Of a stretch of 64,000 bases of DNA, positions 15,719-22,697 are shown piece by piece (positions within the stretch are counted from its first letter, which is position 1; every line of letters begins with the position of its first letter). The DNA lies in the sequence record OR896837.1; one strand, 5' to 3'. This DNA is from Escherichia phage vB_Eco_mar004NP2. Under the pieces are notes generated by a model. The model saw only the letters and a program-made list of their open reading frames with translations, did no database searches and was not told where the DNA came from. A program made the translations under genes and the position numbers.

Positions 15719-15795
15719 TTCAAACCTCTCCCATCAATTTATATAAATATTATAACAAGAAATTAAGCATCAAGCAACTGCGTTTTTCTTGAAAT

Positions 15796-15874
15796 TGGTA
15801 GATCGCCTGGGACTCGAACCCAGAACCTTCCGATTAAAAGTCGGATGCTACTAAACCTATTGAGCTAGCGATCT
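15796..15874 (-). tRNA. tRNA-Lys (anticodon UUU)
   Basis: Hand fold: acceptor AGATCGC/GCGATCT, T-arm CTGGG-TTCGAGT-CCCAG, anticodon loop CTTTTAA, CCA encoded. Confidence 0.7.
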
Positions 15875-16063
15875 ATTAGTAACCATTATATACTTCTTTA
15901 ATAGAGTGAACTTTCAAGTAAGGGTGATTAATCCCAAACTCCGCCATTACTTCTTTCTCATCTTTTCCATAATGAGCAAGTAAGGATTTTGAGGTATTCT
16001 TACCTAAACGTTTGTCACTTACTACTAATCGAAATACTTTCATTTCGAAATCCTCTATTAAAG

Positions 16064-16140
16064 TGGAAGCGGGTGCAGGAATCGAACCTACCTCTTTCTA
16101 GCTTATGAGACTAGCGATCTCTACCAGAGATCTAACCCGC
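16064..16140 (-). tRNA. tRNA with CAU anticodon (Met or Ile2)
   Basis: Anticodon arm CTAGT-CTCATAA-GCTAG; T-loop TTCGATT; imperfect acceptor stem. Confidence 0.55.
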
Positions 16141-16147
16141 AATTGTT

Positions 16148-16225
16148 TGGTCTCCGTGGGAGGATTTGAACCCACGACCCTATCGCCCCAAACGAAACGC
16201 TCTGGCCAAACTGAGCTACACGGAG
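16148..16225 (-). tRNA. tRNA-Pro (anticodon UGG)
   Basis: Perfect acceptor CTCCGTG/CACGGAG + A + CCA; D-arm GCTC/GAGC; loop TTTGGGG; T-stem imperfect. Confidence 0.55.
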
Positions 16226-16600
16226 AATATTATTTCTTTAACCACAGCAAAGATAAGCCCAGCATACTAAAACCGCTAACTAATCCGATACATTTTTCTT
16301 CTATAGTAAAAGTATCTAGATTAAATGCTGTTATAGCTATTGGTATACACCATAATGCCATAAAAACTTGAGCTATCTTGTGTTTCATTTTGCTTTCCTT
16401 CTCTTCACTTTATAAAATATATTATACAGATAATAAAGCAGAATAGCAAATGAATTTTTAATAAATTTACTTATTGTGTAGGCCACCTGGAGGCTACCAA
16501 CCCCACGGCTGACAAAGAAGTTTGCGAGACCTCTCTTAAATGCCAGAATAGACCCGGCGGGTCTATCGGAACCTACATAATAAGTAAACTTTATAGTGTC

Positions 16601-16720
16601 ATTCTAGACAGGACTCGAACCTATTATCACTTGTGCGGACTTACGAGAACCATTCTTTCACTCGAATCGAACGAGCTTCTGCCCTCGCCAAGCTGGTTTC
16701 CCCATCAACCACGCTAGAAT
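16601..16720 (-). ncRNA. tRNA-like structured RNA, about 120 nt
   Basis: Terminal 7-bp pairing ATTCTAG/CTAGAAT, D-like stem GGTT/AACC, T-arm ATAGG-TTCGAGT-CCTGT, but about 70 nt of extra internal sequence and no canonical anticodon arm. Confidence 0.3.
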
Positions 16721-16842
16721 GTTTGATTGTTTTCAGTGCAAGAGTCCGAGTCTTGGACACGACCGCTTCGCAAGTACATAGGCAGCTTATCATGAGTCAG
16801 CACTTCCGAATTGCTAGCTCCGTGTTCTGCACTGAAATTTTG

Positions 16843-17190
16843 TTAATTTAATAGTAAAGTACGATCTACTTCACCATTAATTGTTCGGCATTCTTCTGGG
16901 ATTGCTGGTGTAGTCTTATATTCCCACCATTCAGAACCATCATATTCACCACGTTCTAACCAAGTTCCATCGGTAAACCATACGTTACCATAAAGCAATT
17001 GTCCGCCGAAACCAGAATCATGTTTAAAGTCTAGATTATCTAGAAAATCTTCAATATCTTTTTCTGTATAACCTACGGGTAATACCCAAACTTCTTTATC
17101 CCCATAATAACCGAATTCTATCTTAATACACTTAACTTCAGAATTAGTATTCTTTAGGGCAAGTAACAATTCTTCTTTAGCATTAATCAT
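16843..17190 (-). CDS. hypothetical protein (115 aa)
   Basis: ORF inside the tRNA region. Confidence 0.45.
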   Translation of the reverse strand: MINAKEELLLALKNTNSEVKCIKIEFGYYGDKEVWVLPVGYTEKDIEDFLDNLDFKHDSGFGGQLLYGNVWFTDGTWLERGEYDGSEWWEYKTTPAIPEECRTINGEVDRTLLLN

Positions 17191-17216
17191 AGCATATTTC
17201 TCGTGCTAGTTTAATT

Positions 17217-17291
17217 TGGTACACCCTGTTCGTATCGAACGAACCTCTCAAGCTCTTCAGGCAAGCGCTAATCCATCTCAGCTAAAGGTGC
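17217..17291 (-). tRNA. tRNA-Phe-like (GAA) candidate, possibly defective
   Basis: 75 nt; acceptor GCACCTT/AGGGTGT with 2 G-U pairs; T-arm GTTCG-TTCGATA-CGAAC; loop CTGAAGA; anticodon stem has two T-T mismatches. Confidence 0.4.
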
Positions 17292-17445
17292 AAATTTTGG
17301 CAGGGGTAAAGGTATTCGAAAGCTTGGGCTTCAGAAGTAGCTCTGGCTAACCTATATCCTTTTTTATATTCATCAGGGTATTCTCTATCTTGAATAAACA
17401 CAACATAAACTATGTATAATTCCACTTGTAATCCCCTAATTAAGT

Positions 17446-17523
17446 TGGTGGCTCCCCGAGGATTCGAACCTACGTACCTTCCGGTTATGAGCCGGGTGCT
17501 CATACCATATGAGCTTGAGAACC
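17446..17523 (-). tRNA. tRNA with CAU anticodon (Met/Ile2), second copy
   Basis: Acceptor GGTTCTC/GGGAGCC + A + CCA; D-arm GCTCA/TGAGC; loop CTCATAA; weak T-stem. Confidence 0.5.
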
Positions 17524-17529
17524 AGAATT

Positions 17530-17619
17530 TGGCGGAAGAAGTGGGAATCGAACCCACAAGGCTATATTTCAAACCGACAGATTAGCAATCTGCTGCAATA
17601 CCGTTATGCTATTCTTCCG
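17530..17619 (-). tRNA. tRNA-Ser (anticodon GCU)
   Basis: Acceptor GGAAGAA/TTCTTCC + G + CCA; loop TTGCTAA; long variable arm; perfect T-arm GTGGG-TTCGATT-CCCAC. Confidence 0.65.
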
Positions 17620-17638
17620 AATTTATAAATATATTATA

Positions 17639-18157
17639 TTAGAAATTTAGCTTCATAGCAAGAAAATTTTTCAAGTTTTCGGTAGACATCTCATCCACAT
17701 CTACAGGAGAAACAAATCCATTTAATTGTCTAGCAAATTTTTCACCAGCAGGATCATTATCCCCAACAGCTACCAATTTAAAAGGTAGTAATTTCAATTG
17801 CTTTAACAACGCTTTTCCGGGGGAAGAACCCAACATTGCCAGGGCTGGATAACCAGCGTTATGTAACGCAACTGCCTTAAATACAGATTCAGCAATCAAT
17901 ACTACTTTTTCGTCTCCATTGAGAGTTTCTAGTCCCCGTACACACTGTGTAGTAGAATAAGTAAAATATCTAGCTTCAAAGGGGCATTTACCATGACCTT
18001 TTGGAGCAGAAGGATTATAAGTCTGATAGCCTCTCAACATCCCAGAGAAGTCATACAATGGGACTGTTAGCCATCCTTCTGGGCTTAGCCAGCAGTGATA
18101 TTTATCTGTATCAAACCCTCTAGATAAGAGATGTTCTGTTAGTTCATCAACAGTCAT
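17639..18157 (-). CDS. Toprim-domain protein
   Basis: Conserved Glu in VVLIAESV and acidic cluster VAVGDNDPAGEKFA resemble the Toprim fold. Confidence 0.45.
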   Translation of the reverse strand: MTVDELTEHLLSRGFDTDKYHCWLSPEGWLTVPLYDFSGMLRGYQTYNPSAPKGHGKCPFEARYFTYSTTQCVRGLETLNGDEKVVLIAESVFKAVALHNAGYPALAMLGSSPGKALLKQLKLLPFKLVAVGDNDPAGEKFARQLNGFVSPVDVDEMSTENLKNFLAMKLNF

Positions 18158-18254
18158 TATTTGATCCCCTAGTTAGTTGTATAAATACATTATACAGAAA
18201 AGCCCTGCGTTCTCCAGGAAACACAGGGCTTACTTCGAATATTACGCGTGGATA

Positions 18255-19203
18255 TTACTTATTACGCATATCCATAATCATCTGGCCATCGTAACCAGTG
18301 CCAACCACAGTCTGCGGTACACCACCTTGATACTTCTGAGCACGAATCATTTCAACTTCTAGTTGCTTCCAGCGAATCATCTCAGGAGTAATGGTACGTT
18401 GCAGCGCGGCGTTAGCTTCAGCTTCTTTCTTAGCTGCGTACAGTTTAGCATCTGCGTCGCGTTCGTTAGCAATAGCTTGGTTATTACGAGCTTCACGGTC
18501 TGCTTCTGCTTGTTTAACTTTCTGCTGAGCTTCTTGTTCAACGCGAGCCAGTTCAGCTTTTGCAGCATTAACTTGCTCTTCACGAACTTTGGTATTCTGT
18601 ACCTGTTCCATGATTACTGGTGGCAAAGTAATATCCTGAAGAAACATCTGCTTAACTGTGTAGCCATATGGGCGTGCATACTCTTCAACTTCCTGTTGAA
18701 TTGCAGTTTGCAATTGAGCCTGAATTTTAGCATCAAATAAATCTTGTGCTTTAGGTACAGACTTACCAAACTCACGAATAGTAGACAGTAATTTTTCAGT
18801 TACATATTTGTCTAATGCTTGATCCTGAGTACCTGCATTAATACGGTTAATCGGTGCCTTAGAACCATCAAACTGCAACATAACAGTCAGGTCAACAGTG
18901 GATTTAAACTTATCCTGGCTAGGAACCTGAAGTTTATCTAATTTTTACAGCAATATCTTTTGTACTAAAAGTATCGAAAGATGCAAATGGGTTTACAGGA
19001 TGGAAACCAGGTAATACTGGGTTAGGATCTACTTTACCAAGAAATGTTTGGGTTTTAACCGTACCATCAGAAACAATAGTATATGAATTAAAAGCTAGGA
19101 TTAAACCTGCTAAACCAACTACAGCACCAATCCCCCAACGTTTAATAGTACGAATTACTTTCTGCTCAGAAGTTAGTTCTTTCATATTTTTAGTATTAAA
19201 CAT
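18255..19203 (-). pseudogene. SPFH/band-7 membrane protein, reading frame interrupted (two ORFs, 18934..19203 and 18255..18881)
   Basis: Upstream ORF gives TM anchor plus first SPFH segment; downstream ORF gives the rest plus coiled coil; frames differ by +1 across an A5 run. Confidence 0.5.
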
Positions 19204-19237
19204 ATATTTCCTTTGTTTTAGTTACAGTTAATAAAAT

Positions 19238-19312
19238 TGGCCGAGGTGACAGGATTCGAACCTGCATAAAGGAATTTAGAAGACTCCTGCCTATCCCTTA
19301 GACTACACCCCG
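19238..19312 (-). tRNA. tRNA-Arg (anticodon UCU)
   Basis: Acceptor CGGGGTG/CACCTCG + G + CCA; anticodon arm GGAGT-CTTCTAA-ATTCC; T-arm GCAGG-TTCGAAT-CCTGT. Confidence 0.6.
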
Positions 19313-19814
19313 TTTAAGTATTTTTAAGAACTCTCGTAAAAACTCTTAAAAATACAGACGATACCGGGAGAGTCATAAGTCTCACTCATTAAGTATTTCA
19401 AGACAAAATACAGTAACGTCTATTATTTTCCAGTTTAAGTCAGGGTGACTTAGTGGTTATGTCCTGCGGTATATTGAGGACTCGGTTAGGCTTGGGGTCA
19501 TGACTTCCCACCTTTTGCTGCTACTCAACAGGAGTTATCGCGAATTACCTGTGCTATTGTGCACCATTAGTGACATCTCTCATGTCAGCATTTCCCACTT
19601 TGTGGATAGCTTGAAAAACTACTCCGATATGGAGAAAGAACTTCACTACCCTAGAATACCTTCTAAAGTTCTTCTTTAGCCTAGGCATAGTTAAATCGTA
19701 ATAAAACTATTCAGCAGACTGGTTGGTTAGTCTGGAACCAACTACCGCGTGGTTTAGGCAGTGCGCAACTAACCTCGGAAGCTTTTACGTTAAAAGCATC
19801 AGTTATCCAGTTCT

Positions 19815-19890
19815 TACCGACCGTAGGATTCGAACCTACATCTTCCACCAGTTACGGCTTGATAATACCAATTATACTAGGACGGCAGTG
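19815..19890 (-). ncRNA. tRNA-like element, possible tRNA pseudogene
   Basis: Perfect T-arm GTAGG-TTCGAAT-CCTAC and partial acceptor pairing; no anticodon stem could be folded; no CCA. Confidence 0.3.
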
Positions 19891-20161
19891 TTACTACATA
19901 AGTGATTTCCACACCCCACTATTTATAAATTAGAGAAGAGTTTAGGGGAGAGGTTTCAGACGCCTCATTTTACACGTTCTAGCCACTAACCGGGATTGCC
20001 GCCCCCTGTGTACTAGTTTTACAACTAACCCACCGACTCTATTCAACGAATCTTAGTGCTTGACGCATCTTACATTAAGACAAGTTCAGCGTAATCGGCT
20101 CGCTGTTCTCTAATTTATGAATATATTATACAGAATTTATAAGCATTTAGCAAATAAATTT

Positions 20162-20605
20162 TTAATTAAATTCGCCAGCAATCTGAGCAGCAGTACCACC
20201 ATCATAACGCCCAGGAAATTCTTCCTTAATCGCTTTCATTAGCATACCTTTTGTAATTCCAGGGTTTAGCTTAACTAATTCTGCAAAGTATTTACGAATC
20301 TCAGTATCAGATAACTGAGGAGGCAGATACTCCTGCAACCACTTATTTAGAATGTATTCATACTGAGCGGACTGCAAGCTATAACTATCAAGATCTTGAC
20401 CATGAAGTTTAGCTTTCATCTGGTTAATGCTTTTTAGTTGAGCTTTGAGATAAGACACAAATTGTTCAGAAGTGATGAAATCTTTATTAATACGCTGAAG
20501 ATCCCCGATTATGGTCTGATAGCTTTTAGCGACTTCTTTATCAGAACCATTAAACTTAGAATCCTGCAAAGCTCTACGCAAAACATCTAAAATATTCTCT
20601 TCCAT
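20162..20605 (-). CDS. GatB/YqeY-domain protein
   Basis: C-terminal GMLMKAIKEEFPGRYDGGTAAQI matches the YqeY/GatB C-terminal signature. Confidence 0.55.
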   Translation of the reverse strand: MEENILDVLRRALQDSKFNGSDKEVAKSYQTIIGDLQRINKDFITSEQFVSYLKAQLKSINQMKAKLHGQDLDSYSLQSAQYEYILNKWLQEYLPPQLSDTEIRKYFAELVKLNPGITKGMLMKAIKEEFPGRYDGGTAAQIAGEFN

Positions 20606-20843
20606 TATTTCATTCCTAACGCTTGGTTAAAAGATCGTTCTGTCATAACTGCTGAGACTTTGGCGAAATCAAACTTTTTAGGGTTCGTAGTGATCTCAGC
20701 AACGTTAGAAGTTTTAACAGTTTTCGTAGTACGAATACCGCGAGTGTTAACACCAATAATTACAACTGATTTCATATTTCGCTTCCTCTCATTAATTTAT
20801 GGAAGTATTATACTGAAATTTAAGTATTTAAGCAAGTAAATTT

Positions 20844-21311
20844 TTAAGTTTTAGTGACAACAGGTTTATAAAACGTATGTCCCTTAATCTTAGTTGTTTT
20901 CTTAAACTTCTTTGTCCAGTAAGGTTTATCTTTACCACTATGGAAGTATAGTGCTCCATGTGTAGGATCTTGTGGTAAATCAACGTAGTATATCACTCTA
21001 GCTAAATTCTTGGCGGTTTGCCAAGCCTCATCAGTTTTATCAACTTTTGGTCTCTTAGATACCCAAGAGAACTGGTTAGACTGATATACTACTTTACAGT
21101 AGGAATCTGGGAATTTACCGGAGTTTACACGGTTTTTAGTAACATGTGCAATCGCCGTCATTCCCTTTATGCCCTCACCACGACTTTCGAAATAGATATT
21201 TTTAGCAATGCAATCTATTTCTTTTGCATCGTGCGATGCCTGACTACTAAAGCTGAAGGTAAGGGCAGCTACTAAAAGCAAAGCTGCCTTCATTCTTTTT
21301 ACTCCTGCCAA
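20844..21311 (-). CDS. secreted cell-wall hydrolase (SleB-like)
   Basis: Signal peptide AALLLVAALTFSFSSQA; NIYFESRGE...VTKNR motif. Confidence 0.6.
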   Translation of the reverse strand: MAGVKRMKAALLLVAALTFSFSSQASHDAKEIDCIAKNIYFESRGEGIKGMTAIAHVTKNRVNSGKFPDSYCKVVYQSNQFSWVSKRPKVDKTDEAWQTAKNLARVIYYVDLPQDPTHGALYFHSGKDKPYWTKKFKKTTKIKGHTFYKPVVTKT

Positions 21312-21616
21312 TCATATTCAACACGATTGGGATTTTCTTTATACCCTAAGTCAAGCAAATCATTACGCATATTTTGCTTAGCTACTGGGTTCGAGGTTAC
21401 TAGTACCACTTTCTTTGGTCTCTGCCCAAATTCTAAGAGTAAACGAAGAATTTGATAACCTTCCATACCATCTACAGCCAAGTCATTATCCATATAAACG
21501 AAATGGCCTGTGGTATCAGTTTTATTCAGAAACTCTACAGCGGCTTCTGGGGTTCGAATGATAATGTCCATTCCATGAAGATTACGCACATCATCAATCA
21601 AAATATGAAAAGTCAT
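21299..21616 (-). CDS. hypothetical protein, possible receiver-like fold
   Basis: Weak resemblance only. Confidence 0.35.
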   Translation of the reverse strand: MTFHILIDDVRNLHGMDIIIRTPEAAVEFLNKTDTTGHFVYMDNDLAVDGMEGYQILRLLLEFGQRPKKVVLVTSNPVAKQNMRNDLLDLGYKENPNRVEYDWQE

Positions 21617-22058: not shown

Positions 22059-22697
22059 TTACTCTACTTCAATGAAGGTAGAGGCGTTAGACTCGGACAG
22101 AACAAAGTCAACATTTGTTGCAAAGTCCTGGTATTCCTCGTCATGCTGCTTAATCAGCTTCTCCAGTTCCAGCGGATCAATCAAGAATGGAGTATTCTTG
22201 AGTTCCAGCAGGTTGAGCTGCATTTTAACTTCATCTTCGGAAGTTTTCTTATCGCGGGTAGCCATGCTATCCTGCAAACGCTCATATTTAGCATCAAACT
22301 GTGCTTTCTGCGTATTAAATTTAACCGTAGCGGCATGGAACTGCTTACGCATGTTAGCCAGCAGTTGAGCTTTAAGCTCCATAGAACGCTTAGCTTCAAT
22401 TGCTTCCGCAACAGTCATCTTACGAGAGCCAATCTCAACTACTGTTTCCGCATTGCTCTTAATCAGAGCAGCTTTGATACGATCACGCTGAGACATCATA
22501 TCCAGCAGAGACTGGAAATCTGTCTTAATACGCTCAGATAAATCATCTACTTCGATTGCAGCGCCAACTACAACCTTATTTTTATCCTTACCTTCACCAA
22601 CAGCGATCAGAAGCTGTTGTTCAGTAGCTTTACGGATTTTAGCTTCCAGAGATTTGATAGTTGCTAGAGCGCGAGTTTTAGAGATACGAGTAGTCAT
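22059..22697 (-). CDS. hypothetical coiled-coil protein (212 aa)
   Basis: ORF. Confidence 0.5.
   Translation of the reverse strand: MTTRISKTRALATIKSLEAKIRKATEQQLLIAVGEGKDKNKVVVGAAIEVDDLSERIKTDFQSLLDMMSQRDRIKAALIKSNAETVVEIGSRKMTVAEAIEAKRSMELKAQLLANMRKQFHAATVKFNTQKAQFDAKYERLQDSMATRDKKTSEDEVKMQLNLLELKNTPFLIDPLELEKLIKQHDEEYQDFATNVDFVLSESNASTFIEVE

What the first reader, a model, noticed from the sequence alone, without database searches (positions are those of the whole stretch)
20162..20605. GatB/YqeY-domain protein encoded next to the tRNA cluster
The YqeY/GatB C-terminal domain is linked to tRNA-dependent amidotransferase function in cells. A phage copy beside its tRNA genes hints at a role in charging or protecting phage tRNAs.
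Basis: partly seen in the sequence, partly recalled or inferred. Interest (0 to 1): 0.4.

Follow-up and report, generated by a model that had tools for sequence, protein, structure and literature searches.

The report
Phage YqeY-like protein beside tRNA genes
This gene of a T5-like phage encodes a small, non-enzymatic YqeY-family protein already present in public annotations; its function is unknown, but across many unrelated large phages such genes sit unusually close to tRNA genes, which points to a role in handling phage tRNAs.

Summary
Window 20162-20605 (-) is a 147-aa ORF, the ortholog of T5 gene T5.081. It is 100% identical to a protein of Salmonella phage PMBT29.

The YqeY assignment holds:
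- One sequence against Pfam scores just under threshold.
- A family profile hits B. subtilis YqeY at E=2e-16.

It cannot be an amidotransferase. It matches only the non-catalytic tail of GatE and has no catalytic domain, so the common database label "tRNA amidotransferase" is an over-annotation.

The co-occurrence test is positive. In 108 non-T5 viral contigs, 33% of YqeY-like genes lie within 2 kb of a tRNA and 53% within 10 kb. Two control genes gave 0-5% and 8-29%. Almost all tRNAs share the gene's strand.

One new detail: among T5-like phages the N-terminal domain occurs in at least 9 discrete types (31-63% identity). In the comparisons with T5 and two relatives, the neighbouring genes stay mostly 88-100% identical and the C-terminal domain 80-82%.

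Best reading, inferred and not shown: a non-catalytic adaptor for phage tRNAs. The gene and domain are already known; the function is open. Interest is moderate.

The parts
20162..20605 (-). YqeY-family protein gene, 147 aa plus stop; ortholog of T5 gene T5.081
20321..20605 (-). Codons 1-95: N-terminal helical domain, hypervariable among T5-like phages
   Evidence: Only 37-46% identical to T5, L087 and L088, while most flanking genes are 88-100% identical (the cRec protein of L088 is the exception at 52%). DNA homology to T5 is lost between 20318 and 20571. At least 9 discrete allelic types exist. Helices H5-18, H23-39, H46-66, H69-74 and H77-93.
20165..20320 (-). Codons 96-147: C-terminal three-helix tail domain, the part homologous to the GatE/GatB tail. 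It carries the conserved motif G120..M123..K127..G132-x-Y134-D135-G136..A139.
   Evidence: Pfam YqeY match covers residues 90-142. GatE (1zq1_C) tail aligns here. Near-invariant columns are listed. 80-82% identical to T5.
20605..20775 (-). 56-aa DUF7616 gene (T5.082 ortholog). Its TAA stop overlaps the YqeY ATG by one base (TAATG), so the two genes are probably translationally coupled.
   Evidence: Pfam PF24592 E=1e-32; sequence read directly; T5 annotation.
20807..20835 (-). Promoter-like TTGCTT-17 nt-TATAAT upstream of the DUF7616-YqeY pair; corresponds to T5 promoter P-D/E 33
   Evidence: Sequence read directly; promoter annotated at the syntenic site in T5. It falls below the threshold of the consensus scan.
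20125..20153 (-). Promoter-like TTGCTA-17 nt-TATAAT immediately after the YqeY stop; corresponds to T5 promoter P16-17, which drives rnaX and tRNA-Arg
   Evidence: 10 of 12 matches; T5 annotation.
19313..20124 (-). Homolog of T5 rnaX ('stable RNA with unknown functions'), lying between the YqeY gene and tRNA-Arg
   Evidence: T5 misc_RNA T5s08 sits at the syntenic position. Window 19428-19942 is 91.5% identical to the T5 rnaX region, and 18192-19450 (95% identical) extends into its tRNA-Arg-proximal end; the promoter-proximal 19943-20105 did not align. No convincing ORF.
19815..19886 (-). tRNA-like element inside the rnaX region, with a degenerate anticodon stem; not called by ARAGORN
   Evidence: Rfam RF00005 35.5 bits (gathering score 29), E=4.6e-6.
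19238..19312 (-). tRNA-Arg(UCU), the nearest canonical tRNA
   Evidence: ARAGORN; Rfam 49.3 bits.
15796..17618 (-). Rest of the (shortened) tRNA cluster: Lys(UUU), Met, Pro, a hybrid Phe at 17220-17291, a CAU-anticodon tRNA at 17449-17523, and Ser(GCU)
   Evidence: ARAGORN; Rfam; alignment of the hybrid tRNA.

Best explanation
The gene encodes a stand-alone, non-catalytic YqeY-family protein that probably works as an accessory adaptor for the phage's own tRNAs.

Proposed mechanism:
- The conserved C-terminal three-helix tail is the same module that GatB and GatE use to dock on the D-loop/elbow of tRNA. Here it would contact the tRNA.
- The N-terminal helical domain, which varies in discrete allelic types, would engage a partner. 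Candidates are a host synthetase, a processing or repair enzyme, or the ribosome.
- The result would be that phage tRNAs are matured, charged or used efficiently during early infection.

Shown here:
- family and fold;
- absence of any catalytic amidotransferase part;
- an early-region operon directly upstream of a stable RNA and the tRNA genes, on the same strand;
- statistically strong clustering of this family with tRNA genes in many unrelated phages.

Inferred, not shown: tRNA binding, the identity of the partner, and the physiological effect.
For: Family and fold:
- Profile against 1ng6, 8xjg and 8xje gives E=2e-16 to 1e-9. The GatE tail aligns to residues ~96-147.
- The tail motif lMkaiK....G-x-Y-D-G aligns with the motif vMg......G-K-A-D-G of YqeY and GatE. 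In GatB the corresponding region forms the pocket proposed to hold the tRNA D-loop (PMC2811023).

Context in the window:
- The gene is co-oriented with the tRNA genes. No terminator-like site was found on its strand before rnaX and tRNA-Arg.

Across IMG/VR viral contigs:
- tRNA within 1 / 2 / 10 kb of the YqeY-like gene in 25 / 33 / 53% of 108 non-T5 contigs.
- ThyA control loci: 0 / 0 / 8%. RNase H control loci: 2 / 5 / 29%.
- Fisher test for <=2 kb, contigs of at least 30 kb: p=6e-7.
- The result survives dereplication at 45% identity: 15-17 of 39 clusters within 2 kb.
- 676 of 678 tRNAs are on the gene's strand.

Other support:
- Other neighbours are not conserved; the next largest family occurs in 9 of 115 loci. 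Those that recur are RNA repair or maturation genes: RNA ligase, RlaP, CCA-adding enzyme, RF-1 domain, AAA_33 kinase.
- Bacterial relatives found in metagenome-assembled genomes lack nearby tRNAs in 22 of 24 loci, so the linkage is specific to phages.
- Of the known host genera, E. coli has no yqeY of its own (PMC13374519).
Against: - The isolated YqeY domain of D. radiodurans GlnRS did not shift tRNA and did not work in trans (PMC1865053).
- The protein is mildly acidic overall, pI 5.9.
- 47% of phage loci have no tRNA within 10 kb. Caulobacter phage CcrSwift and Cronobacter phage GAP32 have none annotated within 4 kb.
- There is no preference for a particular tRNA isotype, so specificity cannot be read off.
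- The control loci come from partly different phage populations, and loci are not phylogenetically independent.
- No experimental data exist for any phage YqeY.
Confidence: 0.45

Rival explanations
1. Translation or ribosome factor. Like cellular YqeY, which is encoded with ribosomal protein bS21, the phage protein would act on the ribosome or on translation initiation. It would sit near tRNAs only because phages group translation genes together.
For: - Cellular yqeY is most often in an operon with rpsU and is co-regulated with it (PMC1865053; PMC13374519).
- There is preliminary evidence that YqeY joins bS21 in the OLE RNA-protein complex (PMC12054373).
- In phage GAP32 the gene lies near a ribosome hibernation factor and a CCA-adding enzyme.
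Against: - No bS21 gene was detected in any of the 115 viral YqeY loci. This was a tblastn with E. coli S21, so sensitivity is limited.
- The linkage is tight and specific to tRNA genes: 19% of the 108 non-T5 loci are within 500 bp (21% of all 115), often inside the cluster.
- No ribosome binding of any YqeY has been published.
Confidence: 0.2
2. Counter-defence protein. The conserved tail would bind tRNA, or mimic a tRNA-binding surface. The hypervariable N-domain would neutralise host tRNA-targeting nucleases or shield phage tRNAs from them.
For: - The N-domain is a local divergence hot spot: 37-46% identity against mostly 88-100% for neighbouring genes. At least 9 discrete types exist among T5-like phages. 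This pattern is typical of conflict genes.
- Recurring neighbours in other phages are RNA-repair genes. A cRec cyclic-phosphate phosphoesterase gene lies two genes upstream in the window (PMC7824862).
- Phage tRNAs have been proposed to serve as replacements for host tRNAs cleaved by defence systems (PMC10264068, seen by abstract only).
Against: - No similarity to any PADLOC model. An Acr protein appears only as a chance-level hit, AcrIF14 at E~0.1.
- Mosaic exchange is common in this genome region in general; for example the cRec protein is 52% identical in L088.
- Related genes exist in bacterial metagenome-assembled genomes without any conflict context.
Confidence: 0.15
3. Passenger gene. 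The tRNA regions of large phages are dumping grounds for small accessory ORFs, and YqeY is simply one widespread resident with a function unrelated to tRNA.
For: - The tRNA regions of T5-like phages are packed with small hypothetical ORFs and homing endonucleases, and they tolerate deletions. The window itself lacks about 7.8 kb of this region.
- Nearly half of the phage loci have no tRNA nearby.
- The two controls used were replication or nucleotide-metabolism genes, not small accessory genes.
Against: - YqeY is the only protein family shared by these otherwise unrelated tRNA neighbourhoods: 115 of 115 loci against at most 9 for any other family.
- Its homologs in GatB and GatE are established tRNA-recognition modules.
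- The motif is strongly conserved across 145 divergent representatives.
Confidence: 0.15
4. Genuine tRNA-dependent amidotransferase activity, as the common database label says.
For: Only the label: PHROG_1460 and RefSeq annotations.
Against: - The protein is 147 aa and homologous only to the non-catalytic tail or helical module.
- It gives no hit to the GatB catalytic domain or to GatB_Yqey PF02637.
- No GatA or GatC is annotated in the syntenic T5-like regions inspected.
- Enterobacterial hosts make Gln-tRNA and Asn-tRNA directly (established knowledge).
- There is no Gln/Asn tRNA bias next to the gene.
Confidence: 0.02

Closest known systems
Stand-alone bacterial YqeY (B. subtilis 1NG6; C. 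jejuni 8XJE; V. parahaemolyticus 8XJG; Pfam PF09424)
   Different: Phage-encoded. Linked to tRNA genes instead of rpsU. The pocket Ala of G-K-A-D-G is replaced by a near-invariant Tyr or Phe, giving G-x-Y-D-G-K-x-A-S. The N-domain is hypervariable among close relatives. The function of the cellular proteins is itself unknown.
C-terminal tail domain of GatB/GatE, the tRNA-dependent amidotransferase subunits
   Same: Residues ~96-147 align with the GatE tail, E=0.0034. In GatB this tail is the three-helix bundle proposed to bind the tRNA D-loop (PMC2811023).
YqeY domain appended to Deinococcus radiodurans GlnRS
   Same: A homologous module that raises the enzyme's affinity for tRNA(Gln). This shows that a YqeY module can serve tRNA handling outside the amidotransferase (PMC1865053).
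   Different: It works only when covalently attached to the enzyme. The free domain neither binds tRNA nor acts in trans. The phage protein is free-standing.
T5 gene T5.081 / PHROG_1460 and other phage YqeY-like proteins (e.g. pf16 gp65, GAP32_189, CcrSwift gp147)
   Same: The window gene is the syntenic ortholog of T5.081 and a full-length PHROG_1460 member. pf16 gp65 was already noted as lying next to tRNA genes (PMC5587285).
   Different: The window allele is only 49% identical to T5.081 despite ~95% identical flanks. None of these proteins has been characterised. The label 'tRNA amidotransferase' is not justified.
Aim41 / NUQM, a mitochondrial YqeY-fold protein
   Different: It acts as a protein-protein bridging subunit of Pichia complex I (PMC12487887, title and abstract only). 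This shows that the fold can serve as a protein adaptor and is not necessarily an RNA binder.

Membership tests
YqeY family (Pfam PF09424) | Significant match to the family profile | tested here: met
   The single sequence scores 25.4 bits against a gathering score of 27, so it is borderline. However, 30 of 35 relatives match, best 3.6e-23. A 99%-identical protein carries a precomputed PF09424 hit. A family profile hits 1ng6 at E=2e-16 over the full length.
YqeY family (Pfam PF09424) | Stand-alone ~150-aa protein with an N-terminal helical domain and a C-terminal three-helix tail | tested here: met
YqeY family (Pfam PF09424) | Tail motif G..vM....kG-K-A-D-G | tested here: inconclusive
   G120, M123, K127, G132, D135 and G136 are conserved. 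The Ala position is Tyr134; it is Tyr in 133 and Phe in 10 of 145 representatives.
YqeY family (Pfam PF09424) | Operon linkage with rpsU (bS21). This is typical of the family, not strictly defining. | tested here: not met
   No S21 homolog in 115 viral loci or in 24 bacterial loci from metagenome-assembled genomes. The test was a tblastn with E. coli S21 and has limited sensitivity. In the window the upstream gene is DUF7616.
GatB/GatE tRNA-dependent amidotransferase | Catalytic cradle domain (GatB_N) | tested here: not met
   The 147-aa protein gives no Pfam hit other than YqeY, even at a permissive E-value cut-off of 10 (HMMER's filters drop most matches above about 0.1).
GatB/GatE tRNA-dependent amidotransferase | Partner subunits GatA and GatC (or GatD) encoded in the genome | not tested
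   None is annotated in the syntenic 9-23 kb regions of T5, mar004NP2 and PMBT29 that were inspected. The whole genome was not scanned.
GatB/GatE tRNA-dependent amidotransferase | Tail domain homologous to YqeY-C | tested here: met
   The GatE 1zq1_C tail (550-625) aligns to profile positions 70-138, E=0.0034.
tRNA-binding protein (functional class) | Direct binding to tRNA | not testable with these tools
   Only genomic association is available. The literature on an isolated YqeY domain is negative.

The most novel reading that the evidence does not exclude
Phage YqeY proteins would be a widespread, uncharacterised class of tRNA-directed counter-defence or escort factors. A conserved tail would recognise the tRNA elbow. 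A rapidly exchanging N-terminal domain would match or neutralise variable host tRNA-targeting nucleases, or variable host enzymes, and so keep the phage tRNA pool usable. If true, this would also give the first physiological function for the YqeY family.
Probability: 0.15. Interest if true: 0.75.

Novelty: already known. Interest (0 to 1): 0.36.

Why it matters
YqeY is a widespread protein with crystal structures dating from 2003 but no known function. T5-like phages offer a clean genetic system for it. E. coli has no yqeY of its own, and the phage gene is a conserved early gene sitting just upstream of the phage tRNA genes.

Two results here give concrete hypotheses for experiments: the quantitative link to tRNA clusters across unrelated large phages, and the domain-limited hypervariability of the N-terminal domain.

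The work also shows that the propagated label 'tRNA amidotransferase' (and in some records 'recombination related exonuclease') is misleading and should read 'YqeY-like protein'.

Tried and rejected
- NCBIfam gave no hit. PADLOC gave none for YqeY, DUF7616 or the cRec protein.
- The diverse alignment A2 was too divergent for the search for related loci. The narrower A6 worked but used an N-terminal pattern and mostly returned bacterial copies from metagenome-assembled genomes.
- The listing of cluster members on ten distant representatives gave almost no names or sources.
- I looked for a conserved partner gene next to YqeY across 115 viral loci and found none; the best family occurs in 9 loci.
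- I looked for a preferred tRNA isotype, especially Gln or Asn, and found none.
- I looked for bS21 next to viral and bacterial copies and found none.
- AcrIF14 appeared as a weak sequence hit (E~0.1). I judged it chance, because it received no support from the structure searches.
- Literature searches found no functional study of any phage YqeY.

Full report
**What is there**

The coordinates 20162-20605 hold a 147-aa ORF with an ATG start on the minus strand. The window is a T5-like phage (Tequintavirus). The surrounding 3 kb is 99.9% identical to Escherichia phages Baret and mar004NP2 and to Salmonella phage PMBT29. The protein is 100% identical to a PMBT29 protein and is found in 454 phage records, nearly all T5-like.

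It is the syntenic ortholog of T5 gene T5.081. Public records label it in several ways: 'tRNA amidotransferase', 'YqeY-like protein', 'hypothetical protein' or, wrongly, 'recombination related exonuclease'.

**Domain assignment**

- The single sequence scores 25.4 bits against Pfam YqeY (PF09424). This is just under the gathering score of 27 and covers only residues 90-142.
- NCBIfam gives nothing. PHROG_1460 matches over the full length at E=4e-47.
- A profile of 22 T5-like homologs (A1) searched against 1.84 billion cluster representatives found 851 proteins. Most of the 150 listed are ~130-155 aa long and match over nearly their full length.
- Of 35 diverse members, 30 hit PF09424, best 3.6e-23.
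- The 35-sequence profile hits the three solved stand-alone YqeY proteins over their full length: 1ng6 at 2e-16, 8xjg at 8e-15, 8xje at 1e-9. It also hits the C-terminal tail of GatE (1zq1_C) at 0.0034.
- An AlphaFold2 model (pLDDT 89.5, eight helices) retrieves YqeY structures first by Foldseek.

The protein is therefore a genuine full-length YqeY-family member. It resembles GatB/GatE only in the roughly 55-residue tail.

**Not an enzyme of the amidotransferase pathway**

- Nothing corresponds to the catalytic cradle domain, and there is no hit to Pfam GatB_Yqey.
- No GatA or GatC is annotated in the syntenic regions inspected.
- Enterobacterial hosts use GlnRS and AsnRS directly (established knowledge).
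- Across phages, the tRNA nearest to the gene is not preferentially Gln or Asn. Met, Cys, Leu and Arg are commonest.

The label 'tRNA amidotransferase' is an over-annotation.

**Local anatomy**

- The gene is the second of a two-gene unit. The 56-aa DUF7616 gene (20605-20775) ends in a TAA that overlaps the YqeY ATG by one base.
- Upstream lies TTGCTT-17-TATAAT, at the site annotated in T5 as promoter P-D/E 33.
- Directly after the YqeY stop comes another strong promoter-like site (20153-20125). It corresponds to T5 promoter P16-17.
- Then follows the homolog of T5 rnaX, a 719-nt 'stable RNA with unknown functions'. It contains a tRNA-like element at 19815-19886 (Rfam 35.5 bits).
- Next come tRNA-Arg(UCU) at 19238-19312 and the remaining tRNAs.
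- Everything is on the minus strand. No terminator-like site was found on that strand between YqeY and the RNA genes.

Two sub-alignments of distant relatives retrieved 115 distinct IMG/VR contigs, with up to 10 kb of flank on each side where the contig allowed. Of these, 108 are not T5-like. ARAGORN was run on all of them. Fractions of loci with a tRNA gene within a given distance:

| Loci | <=0.5 kb | <=1 kb | <=2 kb | <=5 kb | <=10 kb |
|---|---|---|---|---|---|
| YqeY-like, non-T5 (108) | 19% | 25% | 33% | 44% | 53% |
| Thymidylate synthase control (80) | 0% | 0% | 0% | 1% | 8% |
| RNase H control, non-T5 (62) | 2% | 2% | 5% | 24% | 29% |

- 676 of the 678 tRNAs in all 115 loci are on the strand of the YqeY gene; in the 108 non-T5 loci, 573 of 575.
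- For contigs of at least 30 kb, YqeY against the pooled controls at <=2 kb is 27/88 against 3/89, Fisher p=6e-7.
- The effect holds in every contig-size class.
- It also holds after clustering the YqeY proteins at 45% identity: 24 of 39 clusters within 10 kb and 15-17 within 2 kb.
- In 30 loci tRNAs lie on both sides of the gene.
- Bacterial relatives of the same clade, found in metagenome-assembled genomes, have no tRNA within 10 kb in 22 of 24 loci.

Caveats: the controls are not small accessory genes, the phage populations differ in part, and loci are not fully independent.

The association is not universal. CcrSwift and GAP32 have no tRNA annotated within 4 kb, although GAP32 has a CCA-adding enzyme and a ribosome hibernation factor nearby.

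One earlier paper noted the same adjacency in Pseudomonas phage pf16. A broad survey of jumbo-phage RNA systems does not mention GatB or amidotransferases, and it did not turn up in the full-text search for 'YqeY' and 'phage'.

**Neighbourhood content**

No other protein family accompanies YqeY consistently; the next largest occurs in 9 of 115 loci. The families that recur in 5-8 loci include several linked to RNA repair or maturation:
- RNA ligase PF09414;
- RlaP nucleotidyltransferase PF10127;
- CCA-adding enzyme PF01743;
- RF-1 domain;
- AAA_33 kinase;
- Macro;
- DUF2828/DUF7788.

In the window, a cRec (cyclic-phosphate processing receiver) protein lies two genes upstream (21299-21616). Iyer et al. 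predict that family to be a cyclic-phosphate phosphoesterase linked to RNA ligases.

**A domain-limited divergence hot spot (new here)**

- Between the window and T5, DNA is ~95% identical on both sides of the gene. Homology vanishes between 20318 and 20571, that is codons ~12-96.
- At the protein level against T5, L087 and L088: Toprim protein 98-99%, SPFH 99-100%, DUF7616 88-98%, SleB hydrolase 97-99%, cRec 96-97% (52% in L088), and the T5.085-like protein 98%.
- In the same comparisons YqeY residues 1-95 are 37-46% identical and residues 96-147 are 80-82%.
- Among 49 T5-like YqeY proteins the N-domain falls into at least 9 discrete types. Identity between types is 31-63% and the distribution is bimodal. 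The C-domain is unimodal at 60-90%.
- Inside the variable N-domain a short motif stays invariant: T31, G34-D35-L36, R38, K41, K58.

This looks like cassette exchange or diversifying selection on one domain. It fits a constant ligand-binding module combined with a variable partner-binding module.

**Conserved signature**

Across 145 divergent representatives the near-invariant positions are P95 (YLPxQL), G120, M123, K127, G132, Y134, D135, G136 and A139. The stretch aligns with the motif vMg....kG-K-A-D-G of YqeY and GatE. In S. aureus GatB the corresponding region forms the conserved hydrophobic pocket (V449, M452, G457, A459, P461), which in a docking model holds the tRNA D-loop. The correspondence of individual residues is my inference from these alignments; GatB itself was not aligned here. 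The phage-type clade replaces the pocket Ala by Tyr or Phe.

**Mechanism**

The best-supported reading is a non-catalytic adaptor for phage tRNAs. The tail would sit on the tRNA elbow and the variable N-domain on a partner. Arguments against a simple chaperone:
- the isolated Deinococcus YqeY domain does not bind tRNA and does not act in trans;
- the protein is slightly acidic, pI 5.9;
- half of the phage loci lack nearby tRNAs.

Rivals are a ribosome or bS21-type translation role, a counter-defence role, a passenger gene, and true amidotransferase activity (effectively excluded).

**Verdict**

The gene is already in public annotation, with a misleading label. What is not in the literature I could search is the quantitative tRNA linkage across unrelated phages and the hypervariable N-domain. 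These make the old question 'what does YqeY do?' experimentally approachable in T5, whose host E. coli lacks yqeY. Interest is moderate.

Noticed in passing
window 15729-17325 (compared with L002 9264-18701 and L001): The window lacks about 7.8 kb of the tRNA region that the closest relatives listed retain (their matches to this 12-kb stretch span about 20-22 kb). Three deletions of 4.5, 2.0 and 1.3 kb have junctions at short shared sequences of 34, 17 and 5 bp. ARAGORN finds only 5 tRNAs here. By comparison, 20 tRNAs are annotated in a 21-kb stretch of mar004NP2 that only partly covers its tRNA region.
   Followed up: partly
window 17220-17291 (-): Deletion junction 2 lies in the shared 3' ends of tRNA-Lys(CUU) and tRNA-Phe. 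It produced a hybrid gene with the tRNA-Phe body and the tRNA-Lys 3' acceptor strand, giving G1.U72 instead of G1-C72. Rfam scores it 40 bits; ARAGORN does not call it.
   Followed up: partly
window 19313-20124 (-): Homolog of T5 rnaX, annotated as a 719-nt 'stable RNA with unknown functions'. Window 19428-19942 is 91.5% identical to the T5 rnaX region, it lies directly between the YqeY gene and tRNA-Arg, and it contains a degenerate tRNA-like element at 19815-19886. Its function is unknown; it could be a ligand of the neighbouring YqeY protein.
   Followed up: partly
window 20321-20605 (-), compared with L237, L087, L088: The N-terminal domain of YqeY is 37-46% identical between phages whose flanking genes are mostly 88-100% identical. 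At least 9 discrete N-domain types exist among T5-like phages, and the breakpoints coincide with the domain boundary.
   Followed up: yes
window 21299-21616 (-): A 105-aa cRec protein (Pfam cREC_REC, E=3.8e-15; T5.084 ortholog). The family is predicted to be a cyclic-phosphate phosphoesterase linked to RNA ligases and NAD+/ADP-ribose conflict systems. It lies two genes upstream of YqeY. In one relative (L088) it is only 52% identical.
   Followed up: no
window 17639-18157 (-): A 172-aa Toprim-only protein (T5.076 ortholog) embedded between tRNA genes. It is labelled 'DNA primase' in databases but has no primase zinc finger or polymerase domain in the Pfam scan. The label may be another over-annotation.
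   Followed up: no
window 18255-19203 (-): The SPFH/band-7 'lipoprotein' gene is a single 948-nt CDS in T5, mar004NP2 and PMBT29. In the window's ORF list it appears as two ORFs (18934-19203 and 18255-18881). This may be a frameshift or stop, or an artefact of the ORF listing rules.
   Followed up: no
L213-L232, L234 (bacterial contigs from metagenome-assembled genomes): Close relatives of the phage-type F/Y-D-G-K clade occur in metagenome-assembled genomes of UBP6, Sumerlaeota, Leptospirales and rumen bacteria. They have neither tRNAs nor rpsU nearby, so this clade is not restricted to viruses.
   Followed up: partly
window 22059-22697 (-): This 212-aa protein (T5.085 ortholog) is labelled 'tail fiber protein' through PHROG_1491. 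It sits in the early region among replication and nucleotide-metabolism genes and has no Pfam hit, so the label looks doubtful.
   Followed up: no
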